A stretch of DNA of 64,000 nucleotides, from the sequence record OR670491. One strand, given 5' to 3'. Positions 27,764-59,927 of this stretch are shown here, piece by piece. Below the pieces are notes generated by a model. That model was not told where the DNA came from and did no database searches. It saw nothing but the letters and a program-made list of their open reading frames with translations. This DNA comes from Escherichia phage vB_EcoM_JNE01. A program made the translations under genes and the position numbers. How positions within the stretch are numbered: position 1 is the first letter of the stretch; every line of letters begins with the position of its first letter.

Positions 27764-27800
27764 TACTTTATACGAATATAATATATCTATGGAGGATATA

Positions 27801-28643
27801 ATGGCGAATTTAAAACTACTACAAGAAGCAATTGAAGCTTTCGCAAACGGCGAGCAAGATGTTGCAGATAAAAAAATGCGTAAGTACTTTGTTGAGCAAG
27901 CTCAAGAAATTAACAAAGAACTAGAAGAAAGCATGGAAGACGAAGAAGAAATTGAAGTCAAGGATGAAGAAAAACTTGATGAAGATTTCGATGTACAACC
28001 TGATGCTGGCCTAAACTCTGAAATCGAATTCGCTCTAGGTGAAGAAGATGAAAGTGCCGAAGCTGAAGTCGAAGAATTTGGTTCTGAAGACGATGGCGAA
28101 GTTGAAGTTGGTGCTGAAGAAGAAGTTGAAGGTGATGCTGGTGTTCCTTCCGAAGATCAATGGGAATCCATTCAAGATGCTTTCCGTGGCCTACAAGACA
28201 TGTTTGATGAAATCGGTGGCGATGTAGACGTTGACCTAGACTCTGAAGAAGAAGTTGAAGGTGATGTTGAAGAATTTGGTGCTGATGGTGAAGAAGCAGA
28301 AGACGAATTTAGTGATGTTCAATTCGGTGATGAAAAAGTTGGTGAATCTTTCAAACTAAAACCAGTAGCTGGTGTTGATAAGAAAGAAAAAGCTGGTGCT
28401 AACACCAAGTCCCCAGTGGCTGGTCAAGCAAAATCTCCAGTAGCTGGCGTAGAACCAGTTAAATTCGCTAAAGCAACCGAAACTCAAGTTGATGACGATT
28501 TCGAAACCGCTGACACCCTATCTGCTAAGAAAGAAGATATGGCTAAAAATGCTCGTGGTGAAATGAAAGACGTTAAAGCACCTAAAGTTGCCGCTGCTGC
28601 GAAAAGTCGCTCAGTACTACCAAAATCTCAACCAAAAATCTAA
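27801..28643 (+). CDS. Highly acidic, repeat-containing prohead core / internal head protein
   Basis: Asp/Glu-rich with internal repeats (EEEVEGD..., KSPVAG x2); position between portal and prohead protease as for T4 core proteins. Confidence 0.55.
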   Translation: MANLKLLQEAIEAFANGEQDVADKKMRKYFVEQAQEINKELEESMEDEEEIEVKDEEKLDEDFDVQPDAGLNSEIEFALGEEDESAEAEVEEFGSEDDGEVEVGAEEEVEGDAGVPSEDQWESIQDAFRGLQDMFDEIGGDVDVDLDSEEEVEGDVEEFGADGEEAEDEFSDVQFGDEKVGESFKLKPVAGVDKKEKAGANTKSPVAGQAKSPVAGVEPVKFAKATETQVDDDFETADTLSAKKEDMAKNARGEMKDVKAPKVAAAAKSRSVLPKSQPKI

Positions 28644-43465: not shown

Positions 43466-49683
<6,218 letters not shown>

Positions 49684-49734: not shown

Positions 49735-49764
49735 TTGGAACGCTTTAAAAACCAATGATATAAT
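49735..49764 (+). promoter_or_regulatory. Sigma70-type early promoter P2 (TTGGAA-18-TGATATAAT)
   Basis: Second copy of the repeated promoter unit. Confidence 0.5.
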
Positions 49765-49811: not shown

Positions 49812-49840
49812 TGAACGAATCAAGTTCAGGTGATATAATG
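49812..49840 (+). promoter_or_regulatory. Sigma70-type early promoter P3 (CTGAAC-17-TGATATAAT)
   Basis: Third copy; its -35 lies inside hairpin CCTGAAC-gaatcaa-GTTCAGG. Confidence 0.5.
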
Positions 49841-49936: not shown

Positions 49937-51004
49937 ATGCAAACTCTAGCTGAAATTCGTGCAAAACTAAAAGCGGAACAAGAAAAAGCAGAAGCTCAAA
50001 AGAATGGTACTTTTACTGGTGAACGTAAAGCCGATTCTTTCCTAGCTTTCTGGAACGTTCCTTATAACGAACCACTAAACCTACGTTTTCTTCCAGATGC
50101 AGATGAAAGCAACCCTTTCTTCTGGCGTGAACGTGATATGATTAACCTGACTTTCCAAGGTGTAGTAGGTCTTCACACTGATAAAGTTACCGTACAAGTA
50201 CCTTGTAACGAAATGTGGGTTCCTAAATCATGTCCAGTACTGAAAGAAGTTCGTCAATGGTTCCAAAGTGCGAATGAATCTGGTGATGAAGAACTGAAAG
50301 CTATGGCTGGTCGTTACTGGAAAAAGAAAACCTATCTAATGCAATGTTTCATCGCTCCTGATAGTGTTGCAGTAAAAGATGACATGGCTCCAGAAAACCC
50401 AATTCGTCGTATTCTAGCTAACAAAGATATTTTCGATAAAGTAAAATCTATTCTACTGAATCCTGGTATCAAAGAACTACCAACTCACTACACTCATGGT
50501 CGTGACTTCGGTATTGTTAAGACTAAGAACGGCGGCGGTTACAACAGCTACGATATGTCTCAATTCTCCATGTCCGAGCGTGAACTAAACGCAGACGAAA
50601 TGGCAGCTATTGAAAAATATGGTCTATACAATCTAAATGATTTTATGCCTAAACAACCAACTCCAGAAGAACTAACAGCAATCGCTGAAATGTTCGAAGC
50701 TTCTGTAAATGGTGAAGCATATGATCCAGCACGTTGGGCTTTCGCATACCGTCCAGCAGGTGTTCAAAAACCTGTAACTGGTGGTTCTGCTCCAGCAGCA
50801 CAACCTGCTCCACAAGCTCCAGCAACACCACAACCTGCTCCACAGGCAGCGGTACAGGAATCTACTCCTGTTACTCCAACTGCTCCTGTTACCCCAGCAG
50901 CACAACCTGCTCCAACTGCTCCAGCATCAACTGGTACTGAAGCACCAAAAGAACAACTATCTGCATCTGCTCTAGTTGCTCGTTTGAAGCAACAAAGCAA
51001 GTAA
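49937..51004 (+). CDS. Single-stranded DNA-binding protein, T4 gp32-like, with atypical Pro/Ala/Gln/Thr-rich C-terminal region
   Basis: LNLRFLPDADESNPFFW parallels T4 gp32 IRFLPSKNDEQAPFA; Cys/His-containing core; upstream of uvsX. Confidence 0.65.
   Translation: MQTLAEIRAKLKAEQEKAEAQKNGTFTGERKADSFLAFWNVPYNEPLNLRFLPDADESNPFFWRERDMINLTFQGVVGLHTDKVTVQVPCNEMWVPKSCPVLKEVRQWFQSANESGDEELKAMAGRYWKKKTYLMQCFIAPDSVAVKDDMAPENPIRRILANKDIFDKVKSILLNPGIKELPTHYTHGRDFGIVKTKNGGGYNSYDMSQFSMSERELNADEMAAIEKYGLYNLNDFMPKQPTPEELTAIAEMFEASVNGEAYDPARWAFAYRPAGVQKPVTGGSAPAAQPAPQAPATPQPAPQAAVQESTPVTPTAPVTPAAQPAPTAPASTGTEAPKEQLSASALVARLKQQSK
50765..50935. repeat. Low-complexity nucleotide/peptide repeat inside SSB gene (CAACCTGCTCCA-type units; PAPQ/TPVTP)
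   Basis: Repeated CACAACCTGCTCCAC units; generates multiple spurious overlapping ORFs in other frames. Confidence 0.6.
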
Positions 51005-52700: not shown

Positions 52701-53519
52701 ATGTCAAATAAATTAGATTTCGTTAAAAAGATTTCAGTACTGGATACTGAAACCACTGGTGTTGAAAGTGATGATGATATTATTGAATTTAGTATTTCAT
52801 TTCCATGTAAAGTAACAGAAGATATTGATGGAATTGATAACTACACTTTACGTTACAAACCATTAAAAGATATTCCACCTGAAGCATCGGCAGTGCACTT
52901 TATCAGTACTGAAGATGTAGCAAACTGCCTGAACTACAGCGATGATTTGGAGAATATTGATGCTCTAATGGGTTGTCGTGATTATTTCGTTGGTCATAAT
53001 GTTCAGTTTGACCGTCGAATGATGGTAGATAACGAATATAAATATCGTAACTCTGTATCACAGTATCTATTGGATGAAGAACGTTGGATTTGTACTCTAC
53101 GTTTTGCCAAGAAGATGTTTGCAGAAGATGTTGAATTCAAGAACTTGACACTGAGTTATTTGTGGTATAAATTTGGATGTTACCGTGAAGTACATCGTCA
53201 TGTAAATGCTCACGCAGCAAAAGATGATGTATTCATGTGTTATCAAGTACTAATGAAGTTGATTGATATTGCCATTGAGCGTGGACACATTGACGAGTCC
53301 GGTGATATTGGAGCACAAATCGTAGACTTCTGTAACAAACCTATGCTTTATTCTTGTATGCCATTTGGTAAACACAAAGGTATGAAGATGAGTGAAGTAC
53401 CACTTAACTACATTGAGTGGATGATTACGAATAGTGATATTCTGGATACAAGTAATCCAAACTGTGATAAAGATTTAGTATATACATTCGAGTACGAGTA
53501 TAGTAGTCGTACTAACTAA
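52701..53519 (+). CDS. DnaQ-like 3-prime-5-prime exonuclease (DEDD family; DexA-like)
   Basis: Exo I VLDTETTG, Exo II VGHNVQFD, Exo III-like H-x4-D (HVNAHAAKDD). Confidence 0.6.
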   Translation: MSNKLDFVKKISVLDTETTGVESDDDIIEFSISFPCKVTEDIDGIDNYTLRYKPLKDIPPEASAVHFISTEDVANCLNYSDDLENIDALMGCRDYFVGHNVQFDRRMMVDNEYKYRNSVSQYLLDEERWICTLRFAKKMFAEDVEFKNLTLSYLWYKFGCYREVHRHVNAHAAKDDVFMCYQVLMKLIDIAIERGHIDESGDIGAQIVDFCNKPMLYSCMPFGKHKGMKMSEVPLNYIEWMITNSDILDTSNPNCDKDLVYTFEYEYSSRTN

Positions 53520-53536
53520 GAAAAAGGCATTCATGG

Positions 53537-55021
53537 ATGAAAACTTGTAAACTAACCTTACTGGACGAGGTTAACTGTAAATTTGAGGGTCTTGAACCCT
53601 CTATTCGTCAAAAGATGATTCGTGCAACTGAATATGTTTTACCATATGCAAAGTTCACACCAGCAGGTCGTATTGGTCGTTGGGATGGTAAAGTTCAGTT
53701 CATGAATCTTGGTGGCTCAACTTATTATCATATGTTGGATAAGTTGCTTCCTATTCTTGATGAAGCGAAAATTGATATTGAATTAGAAGATCACCGAGTA
53801 AATTATGGTTTCGATTTCGAACCAATTGATGAGAATATCTTTGCTGATGTAGTCTTTGGTGCAGGACACCACATGGAAGGTAAATCAATTAAACTCCGTG
53901 AGCATCAGGTAGAAGCTGTAAACGCGTGTCTGGCTAATCAACATGGTTTACTATTGGCAGCAACAGGTGCAGGTAAAACACTCATCACAGCAGCATTATC
54001 CAAGAAGGTAGAGCAGTATGGTCGCTCTGTTATCATCGTTCCTAGTACTGATTTAGTACAACAAACGTATGATGACTATGTGATGTGTGGTTTAGACACT
54101 GGTATGTTCTATGGTGCACAGAAAGACTTTGGTCATCAGCATACAATCACCACATGGCAATCCTTCAATTCTTTGTGGAAGAAAACAAAGAAAGGTGAAA
54201 TTGAACTAACTGAACAAGACGTTCATGACTTTATTGACGGTGTTGTTTGTGTTATAGTTGATGAGTGTCAAGGTGCTGGTGGTGATGCACTTGTACAAGT
54301 ACTATCTAAAGTAATGAACAACGTCCCGCTTCGTTGGGGTTTGACTGGTACTATTCCTAAAGATAAAGTGGTAGCAGCAAAGATTCGTTGTAACATTGGC
54401 GATGTGATATTCAAAATCACTGCTAAAGAATTACAAGATAAACAAATTCTAAGTACATGTAACGTGAACTGTATTAAACTTAAAAGTAATATGAAATTTG
54501 CATCATATGCTGAAGAGTTGAAGTACTTAGTTACTGACCGTGACCGAATGGCTTACATTGCGTCATTGATTGGTGCGTTGTCTGAATCGGGAAATACATT
54601 AGTACTGGTGGACCGACTGGAGGCAGGAGAACTTCTATGTGAGTATCTCGGTATTCCTAAGTCCGAATTTGTTCGTGGTGAAACTAAGAAGAAAGACCGT
54701 GAATCATCTTATGGTGAGATCCGTTGGGCTGATAACAAAATCTTGATTGCAACCTACGGTGTTGCGAGTACTGGTATCAGTATTTCACGTTTATACAATG
54801 TTGTTCTTCTTGAGCCAGGCAAAAGCTTTGTGCGTACAATTCAGTCCATTGGTCGTGGATTGCGTCGTGCCGAAGACAAAGACCACGTTGAAATCTATGA
54901 TATCAGTGGTTCAAACAAATACAGTGCAAAACACTTACGCGAGCGTATTGCATTCTATAAAGAAGCACAGTATCCACACAGTATCATTGATGTAAAAGAT
55001 TGGGAAAACACAGCGGGATAA
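53537..55021 (+). CDS. uvsW: SF2 DNA helicase, UvsW-like
   Basis: Walker A ATGAGKT, DExx box IVDECQ, helicase C-terminal motifs (TYGVASTGISI, QSIGRGLRR). Confidence 0.75.
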   Translation: MKTCKLTLLDEVNCKFEGLEPSIRQKMIRATEYVLPYAKFTPAGRIGRWDGKVQFMNLGGSTYYHMLDKLLPILDEAKIDIELEDHRVNYGFDFEPIDENIFADVVFGAGHHMEGKSIKLREHQVEAVNACLANQHGLLLAATGAGKTLITAALSKKVEQYGRSVIIVPSTDLVQQTYDDYVMCGLDTGMFYGAQKDFGHQHTITTWQSFNSLWKKTKKGEIELTEQDVHDFIDGVVCVIVDECQGAGGDALVQVLSKVMNNVPLRWGLTGTIPKDKVVAAKIRCNIGDVIFKITAKELQDKQILSTCNVNCIKLKSNMKFASYAEELKYLVTDRDRMAYIASLIGALSESGNTLVLVDRLEAGELLCEYLGIPKSEFVRGETKKKDRESSYGEIRWADNKILIATYGVASTGISISRLYNVVLLEPGKSFVRTIQSIGRGLRRAEDKDHVEIYDISGSNKYSAKHLRERIAFYKEAQYPHSIIDVKDWENTAG

Positions 55022-55028
55022 CCCCGCT

Positions 55029-55042
55029 GTTCGTGATATAAT
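55029..55042 (+). promoter_or_regulatory. Early promoter-like element GTTCGTGATATAAT with conserved downstream GTTGT/GTGAATA leader
   Basis: Near-identical block recurs at 59914-59940. Confidence 0.45.
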
Positions 55043-55093
55043 GGGTTGTATGTGAATACAACGACAAAAATAATACAAGGAAGTATAATAAAA

Positions 55094-55534
55094 ATGGAAC
55101 TAAGATCTAGTATTGCATTTATCTGTGACCAAGAAACATTGGATATTATTGATGTGTTTTTGAATGATGATGGTATTATGGATGACATGGTATCTTCACT
55201 TGATTACATTGCCGAATTAGAAACTGATGATACTAATGTATGGCGTTGTAATATTGATAGTGATTCATGGATTAATATCTATGAACTTCAAACACGCATT
55301 GATGATAAGAAAATAGATAAAAAACTAACATATGATATTATCTATGCAAGTACTGATTCTAAAACATTCATTGATGTGGTTAGTCTAAGTGGTAATTTTG
55401 ATTCATATCTAGACACTGACGTTGATAAGATTCAAGAACTATGTGAAACCTACGGTCTTGAGTTCTATGGAACTAATGATGAAGATGATGATATTGATGA
55501 TGAAGATTACAACAACGAAGAATCATATTACTAA
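55094..55534 (+). CDS. Strongly acidic small protein (DNA-mimic / anti-restriction-type candidate)
   Basis: Very high Asp/Glu content with C-terminal DEDDDIDDEDYNNEESYY tail; RBS AAGGA; early promoter upstream. Confidence 0.5.
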   Translation: MELRSSIAFICDQETLDIIDVFLNDDGIMDDMVSSLDYIAELETDDTNVWRCNIDSDSWINIYELQTRIDDKKIDKKLTYDIIYASTDSKTFIDVVSLSGNFDSYLDTDVDKIQELCETYGLEFYGTNDEDDDIDDEDYNNEESYY

Positions 55535-55546
55535 AGGTGAAAAACA

Positions 55547-56044
55547 ATGAATGTATTAACCCCTGAAAACATCACATTTGACATGGACTTAGTTACTGAA
55601 CACATCCCTGAAGAGATGTATTGTGTTCTAGACTTAAGCCCAACTGGTGAATCCGATTTCTACTTCAGACATATTCTAAACACTGTATCCTTTAACAGTA
55701 TTAGTGCTGACCTTCAAATCGGTGAAAAGATCATTCAAGTCCCACTTGGATGGCAAATTATGCTTGGTGATGAAGAGACTGGTATGGTTGAGATGTGCAC
55801 TATCGAAAACATCTTGAATATGAAAGAACCAAAAGCTTTTGTTTACAATCCAATCCGTTCAATGTATCCTAAGTTTGAACCAGTAAAAGTACTGCGAGTA
55901 TTCGCATTAACTACTAAGTGGCAAATCCCAATGCTACCGAAGAAAAACTTATTGTGTGTTCCATTGGCAAATGGTGACAATCCACCATGTGTGTACTTTG
56001 CCGATGAGAATGAGAAAATCCAAGATCTGTACTTAGGAGTATAA
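55547..56044 (+). CDS. Hypothetical protein (165 aa)
   Basis: ORF with RBS AGGTG. Confidence 0.45.
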   Translation: MNVLTPENITFDMDLVTEHIPEEMYCVLDLSPTGESDFYFRHILNTVSFNSISADLQIGEKIIQVPLGWQIMLGDEETGMVEMCTIENILNMKEPKAFVYNPIRSMYPKFEPVKVLRVFALTTKWQIPMLPKKNLLCVPLANGDNPPCVYFADENEKIQDLYLGV

Positions 56045-56046
56045 TA

Positions 56047-56892
56047 GTGTTTGATTTCAGTAATGTTAAAAATAAATCAGTTGAAGACGAAAGTAAACCA
56101 ACACAACATTCTTTTGGTATTACTGATATTCTTCAACAGATTGACCGAGCCAACTACAACTATTACAATGAAATGACTGAGAAAGAGCGTAAAGACTTTA
56201 CGCCTTATACTGTTCTACGCTGGGTAAGTTCCTTAGATGATTCTCTACAGGTAACTTATCCAAGTTCTAAAGTGGAAAGTGTATTTGGTAAATGGAAAAA
56301 TGGTGGCAAAGAAGCACTATCTGAACTCGTTGAAGAGATGAAGAAATCTGGTATCAATGTATCATCAGTTACAAAGTACTGTCATGGTGATTACGATTGG
56401 CGTATCAAATTCGCAGTTCAAGGTCAAGGTGATGCTGCAACTCTAATCAGCAACATGACTGAATTTAACATTACTGGATCACAAATCATTTCCTTAGTGG
56501 ACAGTGATGTGGTAAAATACCAACTAATCATGCTGAATGATATGGTGAACGATGGGTTTTGGGATATGAAAGACCACCCTGAGCTTGTATACCAATTGAT
56601 GTGTTCAGTGCATGATATGCTTGGTGGTAAAGAACTACAAAGAAACTGGTTGAACTTCTCTAAAAGTTTCAAACATTCTAATAACGAATTGTTTGCTTTA
56701 CTAAAGAGTACTCAACCAGATAGCATTTCAGCACAAATGAATGAAGACGAATACAAGATTGTTCTCATGCAGTATGATAAGAAATCTTTTGAGGTATTAC
56801 TAAACAGTATGGGATACCAAGACAAAGATGCTAAATCCATGATGAAACTATTCAAAGAAGAATGTAAAAAATATGGCAAAGAAATCAAGTAG
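56047..56892 (+). CDS. Hypothetical protein (281 aa)
   Basis: ORF (GTG start in track), tightly packed with neighbours. Confidence 0.45.
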   Translation: MFDFSNVKNKSVEDESKPTQHSFGITDILQQIDRANYNYYNEMTEKERKDFTPYTVLRWVSSLDDSLQVTYPSSKVESVFGKWKNGGKEALSELVEEMKKSGINVSSVTKYCHGDYDWRIKFAVQGQGDAATLISNMTEFNITGSQIISLVDSDVVKYQLIMLNDMVNDGFWDMKDHPELVYQLMCSVHDMLGGKELQRNWLNFSKSFKHSNNELFALLKSTQPDSISAQMNEDEYKIVLMQYDKKSFEVLLNSMGYQDKDAKSMMKLFKEECKKYGKEIK

Positions 56893-57583
56893 TCCAGTTT
56901 TTCAATGCAAATTTTGTGATCGTGAATTCAAACGTGAAGATACCGTAAACACTCATAAATGTGTTAAGCGTGATCGTTACGACGACAGAGAGAGCCGCCC
57001 GATGAGGGAGGCTTTTCGTCTTTATATGCAATTCATGGAAATCAATAAGTTTCCTTTCAAGAAAGGAGTGGAACCTTTCATTGGTTTCATTAAGTCAAAG
57101 TACTTTAATGATTTCTATGACTTCGCAACATACTATTTAAATAATCGTGATATTTTACGTATTGATGAATTCACAGAACATTTAATGCGTACTGGTACTC
57201 CAATTACAATGTGGAGTACATACAAAGAGAAAGACAGTTGGGTACTGAGTTGTATCCGTTCAGAACTGCCAAGAGATGGTGTAGTTCGAAGCATCAACGC
57301 ATTAGTTGAGTGGGGAGAAACCGTACACAAAGAATGGAATACTTTCTTCCAGAACGTGAGTTCAGCCCGTGCAATCTCGTGGATTGAGAGTGGTAAGATC
57401 TCACCTTGGATTCTATGGTTATCTCCAAGAGAAAGTGTTAACAATTTCATGTCAAACTTCTCACATTCAGAATTAGAATATATACTTAAATACATTGACT
57501 ATAGTTACTTTGAGATTAAAACAATCAAGTACCGTAGTGATTGTGATAATATACGAGCTATGCTCAAGGAAGCAGGATTATGA
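56873..57583 (+). CDS. Hypothetical protein with N-terminal C2H2-like zinc finger
   Basis: FQCKFCDREFKREDTVNTHKC motif. Confidence 0.5.
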   Translation: MAKKSSSPVFQCKFCDREFKREDTVNTHKCVKRDRYDDRESRPMREAFRLYMQFMEINKFPFKKGVEPFIGFIKSKYFNDFYDFATYYLNNRDILRIDEFTEHLMRTGTPITMWSTYKEKDSWVLSCIRSELPRDGVVRSINALVEWGETVHKEWNTFFQNVSSARAISWIESGKISPWILWLSPRESVNNFMSNFSHSELEYILKYIDYSYFEIKTIKYRSDCDNIRAMLKEAGL

Positions 57584-57909
57584 ATAATAAAAGTATATAC
57601 AATAAAATACCTGAAGGGTATGTGCCAACCCCAAAGGTTGACAAGAGTAGAGAGATTAGTTTATTAAGGCAGGGTTCTATTACTGAGATTACACTTGATG
57701 GGTCAACCTTTCAAGTATCTGATCCAGTACGAATTGAAAAGATAATTAAACTTGTTGAAAGACACGATGAACGATTGTATAATATGAATCAGGAATTATT
57801 ACAATACAAGCGTGCTTGTGCACAGTTGGAACAGAAAGTCAACAAACTTTCCATAACTGTGAATAAATTACAGGAGCAGATTAAGAATGCAGGACTCGAC
57901 AGGTTCTAA
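57580..57909 (+). CDS. Hypothetical protein with C-terminal coiled coil
   Basis: ATGA overlap coupling; heptad-like C-terminus. Confidence 0.45.
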   Translation: MNNKSIYNKIPEGYVPTPKVDKSREISLLRQGSITEITLDGSTFQVSDPVRIEKIIKLVERHDERLYNMNQELLQYKRACAQLEQKVNKLSITVNKLQEQIKNAGLDRF

Positions 57910-58525
57910 TCATTACAGAAAAGCAAGGACTGATATTGACATTGACTTCAAAGATAGTAAGTCAGTGATTGCAATGTTACCTTGCATTAGAAGTACTGAA
58001 AAAATTACCGAAGATGGATTGATTGCACACAATAGTGGTGTTCATTTTGATAACATCCCAGTTGACCCAATCTCCGGTCTAGCAAGCATTCAATACAAAG
58101 AAGCCGAAAGATTGGGATACCAAAAGGTTGATATCCTGTCACAATCGGCTTATATGTACGTGCGTGACAGAAAACATCTAAAGGAACTTATGAATCGTGA
58201 ACCAGATTGGAGTCACTTATTAGTACCGGAAATTGTTGACAATCTATCACAAATTAAAAAACACATAACGTTACTTAACGTTTGGAAACCGCAAACTATC
58301 GACCAACTAGCTATGTTTATCGCTATGATTCGACCGGGTAAACGCGAATGCCAAAGTATGAACACATGGTCTGAAGTTGAGGCTGTTATTTGGGATTACA
58401 GCACTATCGGTACAGATCAGAGTGGGAACAAGCTACGTTACTTCAAAAAGCCACATGCTTATGCATATAGCTTAATGATTGTCGTGCAACTTAATGCACT
58501 GGTTGAACATCTTACTTCTTCTTAA
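57887..58525 (+). CDS. Hypothetical protein (212 aa)
   Basis: ORF overlapping upstream gene. Confidence 0.45.
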   Translation: MQDSTGSNHYRKARTDIDIDFKDSKSVIAMLPCIRSTEKITEDGLIAHNSGVHFDNIPVDPISGLASIQYKEAERLGYQKVDILSQSAYMYVRDRKHLKELMNREPDWSHLLVPEIVDNLSQIKKHITLLNVWKPQTIDQLAMFIAMIRPGKRECQSMNTWSEVEAVIWDYSTIGTDQSGNKLRYFKKPHAYAYSLMIVVQLNALVEHLTSS

Positions 58526-58925
58526 GTGCCACGTTGCGACGTTTAATACGCTTCTGTGGCAAATCACTTAAAGACACAGTTGGGCCACATACGAAATTCA
58601 CCGCTGGGGTATCGAATCTCTGTGTGTAAGGCTCAAATTTTTCCATTTCTTCTTGAAAAAATAAACATACTGGGATGTTTCTGTTGCTTTGCCACCACCA
58701 GTCATGTGCTATGCTAAGTAATTCGTCTTGCATTGGCTCATTCATATCATCAAAGGAGTAAAGAGTAGTGTACTGTTTACTTTTGATTTTGATAATACCA
58801 ATGTAAGTTTTGCCATCACACTGCACAACAGTAATGAATGGTGGAATAGTATTATATTGATTCATATGAGTTCCATAAATATTAGTATAAATGTTATACC
58901 TATTATTTATGGAAGGAAAAATCAT
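58512..58925 (-). CDS. Hypothetical protein (137 aa), lone minus-strand gene in plus-strand block
   Basis: ORF on opposite strand, convergent with 57887-58525. Confidence 0.4.
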   Translation of the reverse strand: MIFPSINNRYNIYTNIYGTHMNQYNTIPPFITVVQCDGKTYIGIIKIKSKQYTTLYSFDDMNEPMQDELLSIAHDWWWQSNRNIPVCLFFQEEMEKFEPYTQRFDTPAVNFVCGPTVSLSDLPQKRIKRRNVALKKK

Positions 58926-59901
58926 GGCTCATCACGGTGTCTTTATGTACCCTTATAATCAGGAAGTCTCGTTGGGCAATTTTAATATGCCATATAGCAA
59001 CGAGAAGCTTACTATATATCGAGGTGCAAATAATACTTTATCTTTTACAGTACATAATGCTGATGGAAAATATACTCTTTTAAAAGATAATGAATATCTT
59101 ACTTTTATGATATTCGATGCACGTAATAATACTAAACTAATTGATATAGTACTTGAAAAAGTTAAACCAAGTTGGCTATCAGAAAGTGGTCAAGCACGTC
59201 AAACACTTGGTAATAGTAAGAAAGTTTACTATGGATGTATAGTTCCAGCAGGTGTTATCCAAGATACAAGTCCTGGTTCTAAGTATCGCTGGAGTATTAC
59301 AAAAGTTACAATGGACGGTTCTCTAATTGAACCTACGCAGTACTTGTATACGGGTCATGACTATGAAGCATGTGGTGATTTGATTATATCTGATCAAGCT
59401 GCTCCTGTATTTGTACCAAGTGTTGAAGTGTCAAGAAATAAGAATCCAGCATGGACTTCTATTATGCGTTTGTATCATGAACCGATTGCAATGGGAATGA
59501 CTGGTGAATTTGATATTCTTGCTTCTTCCCCTCTACCTGCACAGATGCAGTACGGATTGGTAGATGGTTTGAGTACTCTCGCTATGTATTTTGATAACTT
59601 CATTGGACGTATCCAATTACAAGGGTGTTTATGTAACAACGTACCTACAGATAATGAAAACTATAAATGGTTTATCATTAAATTGGATGGTAAAGATTAT
59701 ATAGAAAATGGTATTGATGCTAATGGTTTTGCTAAACCACTAGACGACATACAAGCTTTTAACTTTAAAGGTAACTATATGTGGTTGCGTTTGGTTGTAT
59801 GTATACATCCAAAGGTTGAACCTGTCCCTTATGACTATGCAGCAGTTAGAAAGATCTACGATCCTCTATTAACTGTTCCAAAAATTTTGATTCGCAGATG
59901 A
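58924..59901 (+). CDS. Hypothetical protein (late-type upstream motif)
   Basis: ATG 58924 with RBS GGAAGG; TATAAAT-like element upstream. Confidence 0.5.
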   Translation: MAHHGVFMYPYNQEVSLGNFNMPYSNEKLTIYRGANNTLSFTVHNADGKYTLLKDNEYLTFMIFDARNNTKLIDIVLEKVKPSWLSESGQARQTLGNSKKVYYGCIVPAGVIQDTSPGSKYRWSITKVTMDGSLIEPTQYLYTGHDYEACGDLIISDQAAPVFVPSVEVSRNKNPAWTSIMRLYHEPIAMGMTGEFDILASSPLPAQMQYGLVDGLSTLAMYFDNFIGRIQLQGCLCNNVPTDNENYKWFIIKLDGKDYIENGIDANGFAKPLDDIQAFNFKGNYMWLRLVVCIHPKVEPVPYDYAAVRKIYDPLLTVPKILIRR

Positions 59902-59927
59902 GACAACACTGATGTTCGTGATATAAT
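59899..59927 (+). promoter_or_regulatory. Sigma70-type early promoter (TGAGAC-17-TGATATAAT) upstream of primase gene
   Basis: -35 TGAGAC 59899-59904; GTTCGTGATATAAT block 59914-59927. Confidence 0.5.

What the first reader, a model, noticed from the sequence alone, without database searches (positions are those of the whole stretch)
55094..55534. Strongly acidic early protein with poly-Asp/Glu tail: DNA-mimic or anti-restriction candidate
About a quarter of residues are Asp/Glu and the C-terminus is DEDDDIDDEDYNNEESYY. The gene is preceded by the conserved early promoter block (GTTCGTGATATAAT). Small acidic early phage proteins frequently act as DNA mimics that inhibit restriction enzymes or other host DNA-binding proteins.
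Basis: inference. Interest (0 to 1): 0.5.

Follow-up and report, generated by a model that had tools for sequence, protein, structure and literature searches.

The report
Conserved acidic protein in jumbo-phage replication module
A small, extremely acidic protein with a disordered acid-plus-tyrosine tail is a fixed, fast-evolving member of the DNA replication/recombination gene block of Rak2-like jumbo phages; it more likely helps handle the phage's own DNA-binding proteins than blocks host restriction enzymes, but no function has been shown.

Summary
ORF 55094..55534 (+) encodes a 146-aa protein with 28% Asp/Glu, net charge -32 and the stated tail, behind a TGnTATAAT promoter-like block. The window is a Rak2/121Q-like jumbo coliphage (98.7% to phage Turkey5).

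The protein belongs to an orphan family (PHROG 16541, unknown function), found only in this phage lineage. Every member is strongly acidic (net -25 to -38). 80 of 83 have an aromatic residue in the last three positions.

In every locus examined the gene sits between the UvsW-type helicase and a conserved 165-aa gene, inside the block SSB-UvsX-UvsY-exonuclease-helicase ... primase-DnaB. It has no plasmid homologues. Published promoter analysis of phage CBB places this region among DNA-synthesis genes, not the presumed early host-takeover region.

The phage's gp32-type SSB lacks the usual acidic tail, whereas related phages without this protein carry an acidic patch in their SSB.

Best guess (about 0.35): a replication/recombination accessory whose tail mimics ssDNA or an SSB tail. 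Anti-restriction is not excluded but is disfavoured.

The parts
55094..55534 (+). CDS of the 146-aa acidic protein, stop codon included. It belongs to PHROG 16541 (unknown function).
55094..55468 (+). Folded domain, residues 1-125, with a predicted ferredoxin-like alpha/beta fold (b1-a1-b2-b3-a2-b4-b5-b6-a3) and net charge -21. Carboxylates at D81, D88, D94 and D103 are conserved across the whole family.
55469..55531 (+). Disordered acidic/aromatic C-terminal tail, residues 126-146 (GTNDEDDDIDDEDYNNEESYY). It has 11 D/E and no K/R, and pLDDT is below 50 for residues 128-146.
55034..55042 (+). Extended -10 promoter-like element TGATATAAT, inside the exact 14-mer GTTCGTGATATAAT (55029-55042) that recurs upstream of the primase gene. 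No recognisable -35 element here.
55010..55030 (+). Hairpin ACAGCGGG-ATAAC-CCCGCTGT. The helicase stop codon (55019-55021) lies in its loop and the hairpin abuts the promoter block. It looks like a terminator but has no T run.
   Evidence: -16.5 kcal/mol, z = -2.3; conserved in Turkey5 and fEgEco12
55077..55083 (+). Shine-Dalgarno sequence AAGGAAG, 10 nt upstream of the ATG.
   Evidence: read directly from the sequence
53537..55021 (+). Upstream neighbour: UvsW-type SF2 helicase (494 aa). It is always immediately upstream of the acidic gene. In two metagenomic relatives the gap is 13 nt or the two genes overlap.
55547..56044 (+). Downstream neighbour: a 165-aa protein of unknown function, 12 nt after the stop codon. 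It is always immediately downstream and is much better conserved than the acidic protein.
49937..51004 (+). gp32-type SSB of the same gene block. It has an acid-poor Pro/Ala/Gln linker and a conserved basic amphipathic C-terminal tip, and is the proposed (inferred) partner.

Best explanation
The protein is an accessory factor of the phage's own recombination/replication machinery.

It is made from the DNA-metabolism gene block, as the first gene of a transcription unit that starts just after the UvsW-type helicase gene. It folds into a small, very acidic ferredoxin-like domain, possibly a dimer as many such domains are.

It carries a flexible tail of Asp/Glu interspersed with Tyr/Trp/Phe that ends in an aromatic residue. 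Tails of this kind on E. coli SSB, T7 gp2.5 and T4 gp32 (and the small acidic protein DSS1) act as ssDNA look-alikes. They dock into basic ssDNA-binding clefts or pockets on partner proteins.

I infer that this protein does the same in trans. It would bind the DNA-binding surface of a phage DNA-metabolism protein and so regulate loading, unloading or hand-off on ssDNA. The most likely partner is the gp32-type SSB, which in this lineage has no acidic tail of its own. The neighbouring helicase, UvsX and UvsY are alternatives.

What is shown: the composition, the disorder of the tail, family-wide conservation of charge and of the terminal aromatic residue, the fixed gene position, and the SSB tail difference. 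What is inferred: any binding, the identity of the partner, and the effect on DNA transactions.
For: 1. Fixed position. The order helicase, acidic gene, 165-aa gene is found in all nine metagenomic loci that carry the gene (L002-L007, L009, L014, L015), at about 20-42% identity to the window protein, including a marine TARA contig. The full block (terminase, SSB, UvsX, UvsY, DnaQ-like exonuclease, UvsW-like helicase, acidic protein, 165-aa protein..., primase, DnaB) is seen wherever the contig is long enough, and also in the annotated phages Turkey5, fEgEco12 and CBB. In L007 and L014 the gene is 13 nt from the helicase gene or overlaps it.

2. The charge is selected, not the sequence. Net charge is -25 to -38 in 83 members, and the tail has about 12 D/E, about 0 K/R and about 4.7 aromatic residues. 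An aromatic residue lies in the last three positions in 80 of 83. Meanwhile identity falls to 27-42% in genomes where the flanking helicase stays at 57-72% and the 165-aa gene at 57-78%.

3. The tail is predicted disordered (pLDDT below 50), attached to a moderately confident fold (mean pLDDT 76, pTM 0.68).

4. The SSB of this block has no acidic tail. It has a Pro/Ala/Gln linker and a conserved basic tip (..LLA[R/K]LK..). T4 gp32, T7 gp2.5 and E. coli SSB have acidic tails that are needed for replisome assembly and that bind the protein's own ssDNA cleft (PMC11551737; abstracts of PMC10359462, PMC3936761 and PMC2965674).

5. Complementary distribution. Six SSBs from genomes that have the acidic protein have acid-poor linkers (at most 1-5 D/E per 15 residues, K/R exceeding D/E). 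Four related jumbo-phage SSBs have an acidic patch of 6-11 D/E per 15 residues just before the same tip. These are PA5oct, Atu_ph07, SCTP-2 and XacN1, with no detectable homologue of the acidic protein. PA5oct, for example, has IEDDNDDLPWEDT.

6. Rak2-like phages lack recognisable gp59, gp62, gp45 and gp33. Unassigned accessory roles therefore exist in this machinery (PMC3622015; PMC5259590).

7. The gene is not annotated as a virion protein in CBB, fEgEco12 or Turkey5, although two neighbouring genes are in CBB.
Against: - No interaction was tested.
- The complementary SSB pattern amounts to a single evolutionary transition (the Rak2-like clade against outgroups), so it is weak evidence.
- In the more distant relatives PA5oct and SCTP-2, the same slot holds unrelated proteins: an 83-aa non-acidic one and a 167-aa very basic one. 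The slot is therefore not a universal replisome component.
- The protein evolves faster than most of its neighbours, which would also fit an arms race with a host target.
- Four carboxylates (D81, D88, D94, D103) are conserved across the whole family and cluster in the b4-b6 region. They may point to a specific metal or ligand site rather than general mimicry.
- The promoter directly upstream could be recognised by unmodified host RNA polymerase, which would allow early expression.
Confidence: 0.35

Rival explanations
1. It is a classical anti-restriction DNA mimic of the Ocr, ArdA or Arn type. The acidic surface would imitate B-form DNA and block type I or other restriction enzymes, or systems such as BREX, early in infection.
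For: - The charge density (28% D/E, net -32 in 146 aa) is in the range I recall for Ocr and ArdA (my own knowledge; composition).
- The charge is conserved while the sequence drifts, and evolution is fast.
- A sigma-70-type extended -10 element lies directly upstream.
- The closest fold, Api92/DUF1281 (YubB in plasmid F), is encoded in plasmid leading regions next to anti-restriction genes.
Against: - No Pfam, NCBIfam or PDB sequence match to any anti-restriction or DNA-mimic family.
- Profile-profile comparison with DUF1281 gives a probability of 0.3%.
- The gene sits at a fixed position inside the recombination/replication block, not in a variable accessory island.
- It is confined to one phage lineage and absent from 72,556 plasmids.
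- In CBB this genome region is the DNA-synthesis region, while the presumed early host-takeover region is elsewhere (PMC5259590).
- It is not annotated as a virion, and hence injected, protein.
Confidence: 0.1
2. It is a mimic directed against another host DNA-binding protein or nuclease that threatens recombination-dependent replication. Candidates are RecBCD (as with lambda Gam or T7 gp5.9), host SSB partners, H-NS or HU, or RNA polymerase.
For: - The gene lies among recombination genes (UvsX, UvsY, exonuclease, UvsW-type helicase), where protecting DNA ends and intermediates matters.
- The acidic/aromatic tail resembles SSB tips, which many host enzymes recognise (abstract of PMC3936761).
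- Fast evolution could reflect adaptation to hosts. Cultured hosts range from Escherichia to Vibrio and Xanthomonas.
Against: - There is no similarity to Gam, gp5.9, Abc2 or other known inhibitors in any search.
- The target would have to be common to hosts as different as Enterobacterales, Vibrio and Xanthomonas.
- This reading does not explain the complementary SSB-tail pattern.
- Nothing was tested directly.
Confidence: 0.15
3. It is a small ligand- or metal-binding protein, or an enzyme, built on an RRM/ferredoxin-like fold. Alternatively it is a chaperone or assembly factor. In these readings the acidity is secondary.
For: - Four carboxylates (D81, D88, D94, D103) and S97 are conserved through the whole family and cluster on the b4-b5-b6 hairpin region.
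- The stretch IIYASTDS loosely recalls the YGDTDS hairpin of family B polymerase palm domains (sequence read directly; the motif is from my own knowledge).
- Two genes of the same operon encode virion proteins in CBB.
Against: - No catalytic family matches by sequence or fold.
- The domain is only about 125 aa.
- A net charge of -21 on the domain is unfavourable for a nucleic-acid substrate.
- The family-wide tail with a terminal aromatic residue has no obvious role in this reading.
Confidence: 0.12

Closest known systems
Acidic C-terminal tails of ssDNA-binding proteins (E. coli SSB-Ct, T7 gp2.5, T4 gp32 A-domain)
   Same: It is a disordered Asp/Glu-rich C-terminal segment with an aromatic residue at or next to the C-terminus, and it is encoded among replication/recombination genes. 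In the known cases such tails bind basic ssDNA clefts and recruit partner proteins.
   Different: Here the tail is attached to a very acidic ferredoxin-like domain, not to an OB-fold DNA-binding domain. The protein therefore cannot itself be an SSB, and the tail would have to act in trans.
DSS1/Sem1 (small acidic/aromatic partner of BRCA2 and RPA in eukaryotic recombination)
   Same: It is a small, very acidic protein rich in aromatic residues, in a recombination context, with a proposed ssDNA-mimic action on an SSB-type protein (abstract of PMC7641332; the RPA mechanism is from my own knowledge).
   Different: There is no homology. DSS1 is about 70 aa and fully disordered, whereas this protein has a folded domain of about 125 aa. 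The analogy is one of mechanism only and is untested.
Api92 / DUF1281 (YubB of plasmid F), PDB 2ijr
Ocr (T7 gp0.3), ArdA, Arn: anti-restriction DNA mimics
   Same: It is a small phage protein with a very high density of negative charge.
   Different: The predicted fold is different, and there are no sequence or profile matches. The gene is a fixed member of the replication/recombination block of one phage lineage, not an early, mobile accessory gene.
T4 UvsW.1 (the small gene that follows uvsW)
   Same: It occupies the same position, immediately downstream of the UvsW-type helicase gene.
   Different: UvsW.1 is described as a small trihelical protein (PMC7824862). This protein is twice as long, has a predicted alpha/beta fold and carries an acidic tail. 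Homology was not demonstrated.

Membership tests
Anti-restriction DNA mimics (Ocr, ArdA, ArdB/KlcA, Arn) | Sequence or profile match to the family models | tested here: not met
   The window protein has no Pfam or NCBIfam hit to any such family at E <= 0.1. Scanning 25 family members at E <= 10 gives none either. PDB sequence and profile searches are empty.
Anti-restriction DNA mimics (Ocr, ArdA, ArdB/KlcA, Arn) | Fold of a known mimic | tested here: not met
Anti-restriction DNA mimics (Ocr, ArdA, ArdB/KlcA, Arn) | Very high negative surface charge | tested here: met
   28% D/E and net charge -32, conserved in 83 members. The spatial, DNA-like arrangement of the charges could not be examined because no model coordinates were available.
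Anti-restriction DNA mimics (Ocr, ArdA, ArdB/KlcA, Arn) | Early-expressed or leading-region accessory gene, often spread among unrelated mobile elements | tested here: not met
   The gene holds a fixed position in the recombination/replication block in all nine metagenomic loci. It occurs in only one phage lineage and has no plasmid homologue. In CBB this region is the DNA-synthesis region, not the presumed early region. Expression timing itself was not measured.
Anti-restriction DNA mimics (Ocr, ArdA, ArdB/KlcA, Arn) | Binds and inhibits a restriction enzyme | not testable with these tools
   This needs plating and biochemical assays.
DUF1281 / Api92 / YubB ferredoxin-like proteins | Match to Pfam PF06924 or PF18406 | tested here: not met
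   No hit for the window protein or for any of 25 family members. F-plasmid YubB, used as a positive control, matches at 5e-33 and 1.5e-15.
DUF1281 / Api92 / YubB ferredoxin-like proteins | Profile-profile homology | tested here: not met
   hhalign of A2 against a 15-sequence DUF1281 alignment gives a probability of 0.3%. Against the single YubB sequence it gives 0.4%. The DUF1281 alignment has low diversity (at least 63% identity), so sensitivity was limited.
DUF1281 / Api92 / YubB ferredoxin-like proteins | Structural similarity to 2ijr | tested here: inconclusive
SSB-type acidic C-terminal tail (SSB-Ct, gp2.5, gp32 A-domain) | Disordered Asp/Glu-rich C-terminal segment | tested here: met
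   Residues 128-146 have pLDDT below 50. Residues 126-146 hold 11 D/E and no K/R. The same holds family-wide.
SSB-type acidic C-terminal tail (SSB-Ct, gp2.5, gp32 A-domain) | Aromatic or hydrophobic residue at or next to the C-terminus | tested here: met
   80 of 83 members have F, W or Y in the last three residues. 42 end in YY and 14 in QY.
SSB-type acidic C-terminal tail (SSB-Ct, gp2.5, gp32 A-domain) | Tail attached to an OB-fold ssDNA-binding domain | tested here: not met
   The domain is ferredoxin-like with net charge -21. It matches no SSB or gp32 model.
SSB-type acidic C-terminal tail (SSB-Ct, gp2.5, gp32 A-domain) | Tail binds replisome or recombination partners, or an ssDNA cleft | not testable with these tools
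T4 UvsW.1 | Small helical protein encoded directly after uvsW | tested here: not met
   The position matches. However, the model is alpha/beta, with six strands and three helices over 146 aa, whereas UvsW.1 is described as trihelical (PMC7824862). No UvsW.1 sequence was compared.

The most novel reading that the evidence does not exclude
Rak2-like jumbo phages run a 'split SSB'. The acidic, aromatic-tipped tail that T4 gp32, T7 gp2.5 and bacterial SSBs carry in cis has been moved onto a separate small acidic protein encoded four genes downstream. That protein would dock on the tail-less gp32-type SSB, either on its ssDNA cleft or on its conserved basic tip. It would then control SSB turnover and the hand-off to UvsX/UvsY, the helicases or the polymerase.
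Probability: 0.2. Interest if true: 0.6.

Novelty: new variant of a known kind. Interest (0 to 1): 0.38.

Why it matters
Rak2-like jumbo phages have a T4-type replisome in which several standard parts (gp45, gp62, gp59, gp33) cannot be found. The block between the UvsW-type helicase gene and the primase gene consists of conserved genes with no assigned function.

Assigning a role to the first of these genes would help reconstruct how these very large genomes are replicated. If the acidic tail really acts in trans on a tail-less gp32-type SSB, it would be a natural experiment that separates the regulatory tail of an SSB from its DNA-binding core. That would be useful for understanding how SSB tails gate access to ssDNA.

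If it instead proves to be a host-directed mimic, it would add a new fold to the known DNA-mimic proteins. Either outcome needs simple biochemistry. At present the finding is a well-defined orphan family with a testable hypothesis, not a demonstrated mechanism.

Tried and rejected
- **Database matches for the protein.** Pfam, NCBIfam and PHROGs gave only weak compositional hits (YihI, 5 of 25 members, E about 0.01-0.1), apart from the unannotated PHROG 16541.
- **PDB searches.** Sequence and profile searches found nothing.
- **AlphaFold database fold library.** It was not available.
- **The search for related loci with the family alignment.** It failed because no stretch was conserved enough. 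I used the look-up of encoding contigs instead.
- **PA5oct gp268.** This 83-aa protein in the same slot shares a local 'IISGDFD' motif, but hhalign gives a probability of 0.5%, so I do not count it as a homologue.
- **'Clamp-loader small subunit' label.** Turkey5 annotates the neighbouring 281-aa gene this way. No Pfam, NCBIfam or PDB sequence search supports it.
- **Literature.** Nothing on this protein or on Api92/DUF1281 function turned up.

Full report
**What the window is.** The region 53500-57600 is 98.7% identical to Escherichia phage Turkey5 and about 80% identical to 121Q, PBECO4 and other 350-kb coliphages. The window therefore comes from a Rak2/121Q-like jumbo myovirus.

**The observation.**
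- ORF 55094..55534 (+) encodes 146 aa with 41 Asp+Glu (28%) and 9 Lys+Arg, net charge -32 and pI about 4. It ends in DEDDDIDDEDYNNEESYY.
- It is the second most acidic of the 48 + strand ORFs of at least 80 aa.
- Both parts are acidic: residues 1-125 have 30 D/E against 9 K/R, and residues 126-146 have 11 D/E and no K/R.
- The ATG at 55094 is the true start. A longer TTG-initiated reading from 55046 is not supported: 33 of the 34 homologues aligned begin MEL(R/K)S (one begins MSLRSS), and AAGGAAG lies 10 nt upstream.

**The promoter block.**
- GTTCGTGATATAAT is exact at 55029-55042 and once more at 59914-59927, upstream of the primase gene.
- The part shared with other intergenic sites is an extended -10 element, TGnTATAAT.
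- Several of those sites, including three in tandem upstream of the SSB gene, also carry a -35 element of the type TGAGACA, TGGAACA or TTGAACA.
- At this gene the -35 position is occupied by a hairpin (55010-55030, -16.5 kcal/mol, z = -2.3). The helicase stop codon lies in its loop.
- The TGnTATAAT element is kept in fEgEco12, CBB and one metagenomic relative. In other relatives the gap to the helicase gene is 32 nt, 13 nt, or an overlap. The transcription-unit boundary therefore varies while the gene position does not.
- The CBB genome paper describes exactly this promoter class: a classic -10 with a divergent -35 consensus TGAAACG. It sits mainly upstream of DNA-synthesis genes CBB_258-329, and the homologue of this gene, CBB gp282, lies in that region.
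- The same paper places the presumed early host-takeover genes in CBB_390-546, behind canonical RpoD-like promoters with UP elements (PMC5259590).
- 'Early' is thus unverified, and a delayed-early or middle class is at least as likely.

**The family.**
- The protein matches PHROG 16541 (unknown function) end to end at E = 7e-70.
- A search of 5.8 billion proteins found 64 relatives, all 140-146 aa and all from Rak2-like phages or metagenomes.
- An exhaustive profile search of 1.84 billion cluster representatives found only 23 clusters. Twenty are full-length proteins of 128-156 aa, one is a 52-aa fragment and two are spurious repeat proteins.
- All 25 members of the diverse alignment hit PHROG 16541 and no annotated family.
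- tblastn finds the gene in 72 phage records: Escherichia, Klebsiella, Salmonella, Erwinia, Yersinia, Pectobacterium, Serratia, Cronobacter and Xanthomonas. A distant family member used as query also finds it in one 349-kb Vibrio phage. Every copy is annotated 'hypothetical protein'. It is in none of 72,556 plasmids.
- Across 83 members, D/E content is 22.5-31% and net charge is -25 to -38. The folded part alone carries -14 to -27.
- The last 22 residues average 11.8 D/E, 0.05 K/R and 4.7 aromatic residues. 80 of 83 have F, W or Y within the last three positions.
- Only D103 is invariant in the diverse alignment. D81, D88 and D94 are acidic in at least 96% of sequences.
- So what is conserved is the overall charge, the acid-plus-aromatic character of the tail, and a small carboxylate cluster on strands b4-b6. 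The rest of the sequence is not.

**Structure.**
- AlphaFold2 with a 35-sequence alignment gives mean pLDDT 75.9 and pTM 0.68. The topology is b1-a1-b2-b3-a2-b4-b5-b6-a3, and the tail is disordered (residues 128-146, pLDDT below 50).
- Foldseek against the PDB finds nothing significant.
- Among predicted viral structures the hits are the RaK2 orthologue, a 127-aa protein that may be the Vibrio-phage homologue, and weak 'YubB ferredoxin-like domain' proteins.
- I tested the DUF1281 lead directly. The frameshifted yubB of plasmid F matches DUF1281 and DUF1281_C strongly. Profile-profile comparison with the acidic family gives a probability of only 0.3-0.4%.
- The relation is therefore at most one of fold, and DUF1281 itself has no known function.
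- No known DNA mimic or anti-restriction protein appears in any list.

**Genomic context.**
- The gene order in the window is: large terminase, a 431-aa protein, gp32-type SSB, UvsX, UvsY, DnaQ-like exonuclease, UvsW-type helicase, the acidic protein, then proteins of 165, 281, 236 (zinc finger), 109 and 212 aa. A minus-strand gene, a 336-aa protein, primase and DnaB-type helicase follow.
- The triplet helicase, acidic gene, 165-aa gene is present in all nine metagenomic loci that carry a family member, down to about 20% identity and including a TARA ocean contig. The rest of the order is kept wherever the contig extends that far.
- Between the window and those loci the acidic protein keeps 27-42% identity, or is undetectable by tblastn. 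The helicase keeps 57-72%, the 165-aa protein 55-78% and UvsX 62-77%. It is thus a fixed but fast-evolving member of the block.
- Further out, the slot is not conserved. In Pseudomonas phage PA5oct it holds an 83-aa non-acidic protein, with no significant profile match. In Salicola phage SCTP-2 it holds a 167-aa very basic protein. In both, the helicase and the 165-aa gene remain.
- In CBB the homologues of the 109-aa and 336-aa genes are virion proteins, while the acidic protein is not annotated as one.

**An unexpected correlate.**
- The gp32-type SSB of this block has no acidic C-terminal tail (Pfam gp32, E = 3e-6). After the core comes a Pro/Ala/Gln-rich linker and a conserved basic amphipathic tip..A(S/D)LLA(R/K)LK...
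- In T4 the acidic C-terminus of gp32 is required for replisome assembly and is thought to occupy the protein's own ssDNA site (PMC11551737 and references listed there).
- T7 gp2.5 and E. coli SSB behave similarly (abstracts of PMC10359462, PMC3936761 and PMC2965674).
- I compared ten SSBs of this clade.
  - The six from genomes that carry the acidic protein have acid-poor linkers: at most 1-5 D/E in any 15 residues, with K/R exceeding D/E.
  - The other four have an acidic patch of 6-11 D/E per 15 residues right before the same basic tip. Examples are IEDDNDDLPWEDT in PA5oct and EEEDDEEEDIFEKLRAR in XacN1.
  - Those four come from related jumbo phages (PA5oct, Atu_ph07, SCTP-2, XacN1) with no detectable homologue of the acidic protein.
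- This fits the idea that the acidic module is supplied in trans in Rak2-like phages. It reflects a single split in the tree, so it is suggestive only.

**Interpretation.**
The specific anti-restriction reading is disfavoured for these reasons:
  - the fixed place in the recombination/replication block;
  - the restriction to one phage lineage;
  - the absence of any relation to known mimics;
  - the published promoter and region analysis of CBB.
- I consider it most likely (about 0.35) that the protein is an accessory of the phage's own DNA-metabolism machinery. Its acid/aromatic tail would act like an SSB tail or an ssDNA look-alike on a basic DNA-binding surface.
- The tail-less gp32-type SSB is the leading candidate partner. 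The adjacent helicase, UvsX and UvsY are alternatives.
- Rak2-like phages lack recognisable gp59, gp62, gp45 and gp33 (PMC3622015; PMC5259590), so unassigned accessory roles exist.
- The rivals are:
  - a classical anti-restriction mimic (0.10);
  - a mimic aimed at another host protein such as RecBCD (0.15);
  - a ligand- or metal-binding or assembly role suggested by the conserved carboxylate cluster (0.12).
- The remaining probability is 'none of these'.

**Limits.**
- No binding, timing or phenotype was tested.
- Complex prediction was not possible with the tools.

**Verdict.** The feature is real, and the family is conserved but uncharacterised. It is best filed as a new variant of the acidic-tail or mimic type of DNA-metabolism accessory protein. 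Interest is moderate.

Noticed in passing
window 49937-51004 (+): The gp32-type SSB has no acidic C-terminal tail. It carries a Pro/Ala/Gln-rich linker and a conserved basic amphipathic tip (..SALVARLKQQSK). The tip is conserved in ten SSBs of this jumbo-phage clade. Only relatives that lack the acidic protein (PA5oct, Atu_ph07, SCTP-2, XacN1) have an acidic patch before it.
   Followed up: partly
window 55547-56044 (+) and 57887-58525 (+): The 165-aa and 212-aa proteins have no family assignment, although some records label the 212-aa one 'DNA polymerase' or 'Pol III alpha'. They are the best-conserved genes of the block: 83% identity to CBB, 55-78% and 49-73% respectively to the more distant metagenomic relatives, and 34% to PA5oct for the 165-aa protein. 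That equals or exceeds the helicase against most relatives. They are candidates for the 'missing' replisome parts (gp45, gp62, gp59) of Rak2-like phages.
   Followed up: partly
window 56047-56892 (+): The 281-aa gene is annotated 'sliding-clamp-loader small subunit' in phage Turkey5. No Pfam, NCBIfam, PHROG-annotated or PDB sequence match supports that label. It starts with GTG and its end overlaps the next gene by 20 nt.
   Followed up: partly
window 49674-49683, 49755-49764, 49830-49839 (+): Three promoter-like TGnTATAAT elements lie in tandem about 80 nt apart, upstream of the SSB gene. The first two have TTGAACA / TTGGAACG -35 elements, and hairpins lie between them. This arrangement suggests very strong or staged expression of the SSB.
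   Followed up: no
window 27789-28643 (+): This 284-aa ORF is the most acidic in the window (30.6% D/E). It has long Glu/Asp-rich low-complexity stretches and a basic C-terminal end. It may be a scaffolding or internal head protein.
   Followed up: no
window 55010-55030 (+): A GC-rich hairpin has the helicase stop codon in its loop and directly abuts the -10 element of the next gene. It forms a compact terminator-like/promoter junction with no T run, and is conserved in Turkey5 and fEgEco12.
   Followed up: partly
L016 4739-4990 (PA5oct gp268) and L017 3366-3869 (SCTP-2 gene 144): In more distant jumbo phages, the slot between the UvsW-type helicase gene and the 165-aa gene holds unrelated small proteins. 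PA5oct has an 83-aa neutral protein with a local 'IISGDFD' resemblance. SCTP-2 has a 167-aa Lys/Asn-rich basic protein.
   Followed up: partly
window 55337-55360 (residues 82-89, IIYASTDS): This conserved b4-b5 hairpin motif (consensus h-h-[Y/H]-A-[S/L]-T-D) loosely resembles the YGDTDS motif C hairpin of family B DNA polymerases. Together with D81, D94 and D103 it forms the only carboxylate cluster conserved across the whole family. No polymerase palm domain appeared in the fold searches.
   Followed up: partly
L013 2811-3781 (plasmid F, NC_002483 52810-53780): The DUF1281/YubB gene of plasmid F is split by a frameshift into two ORFs of 183 and 145 aa. It is missing from the distributed gene table.
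   Followed up: no
L012 7499-7846 and 8857-9828 (CBB gp286, gp289); window 57580-57909 and 58891-59901: The homologues of the 109-aa and 336-aa genes of this 'replication' block are annotated as virion structural proteins in CBB. The PA5oct counterpart of the 336-aa gene, assigned by its position in the block, is also annotated structural from mass spectrometry. The PA5oct SSB homologue is labelled 'structural protein' on the same basis. The block therefore mixes DNA-metabolism proteins and proteins packaged in the virion.
   Followed up: no
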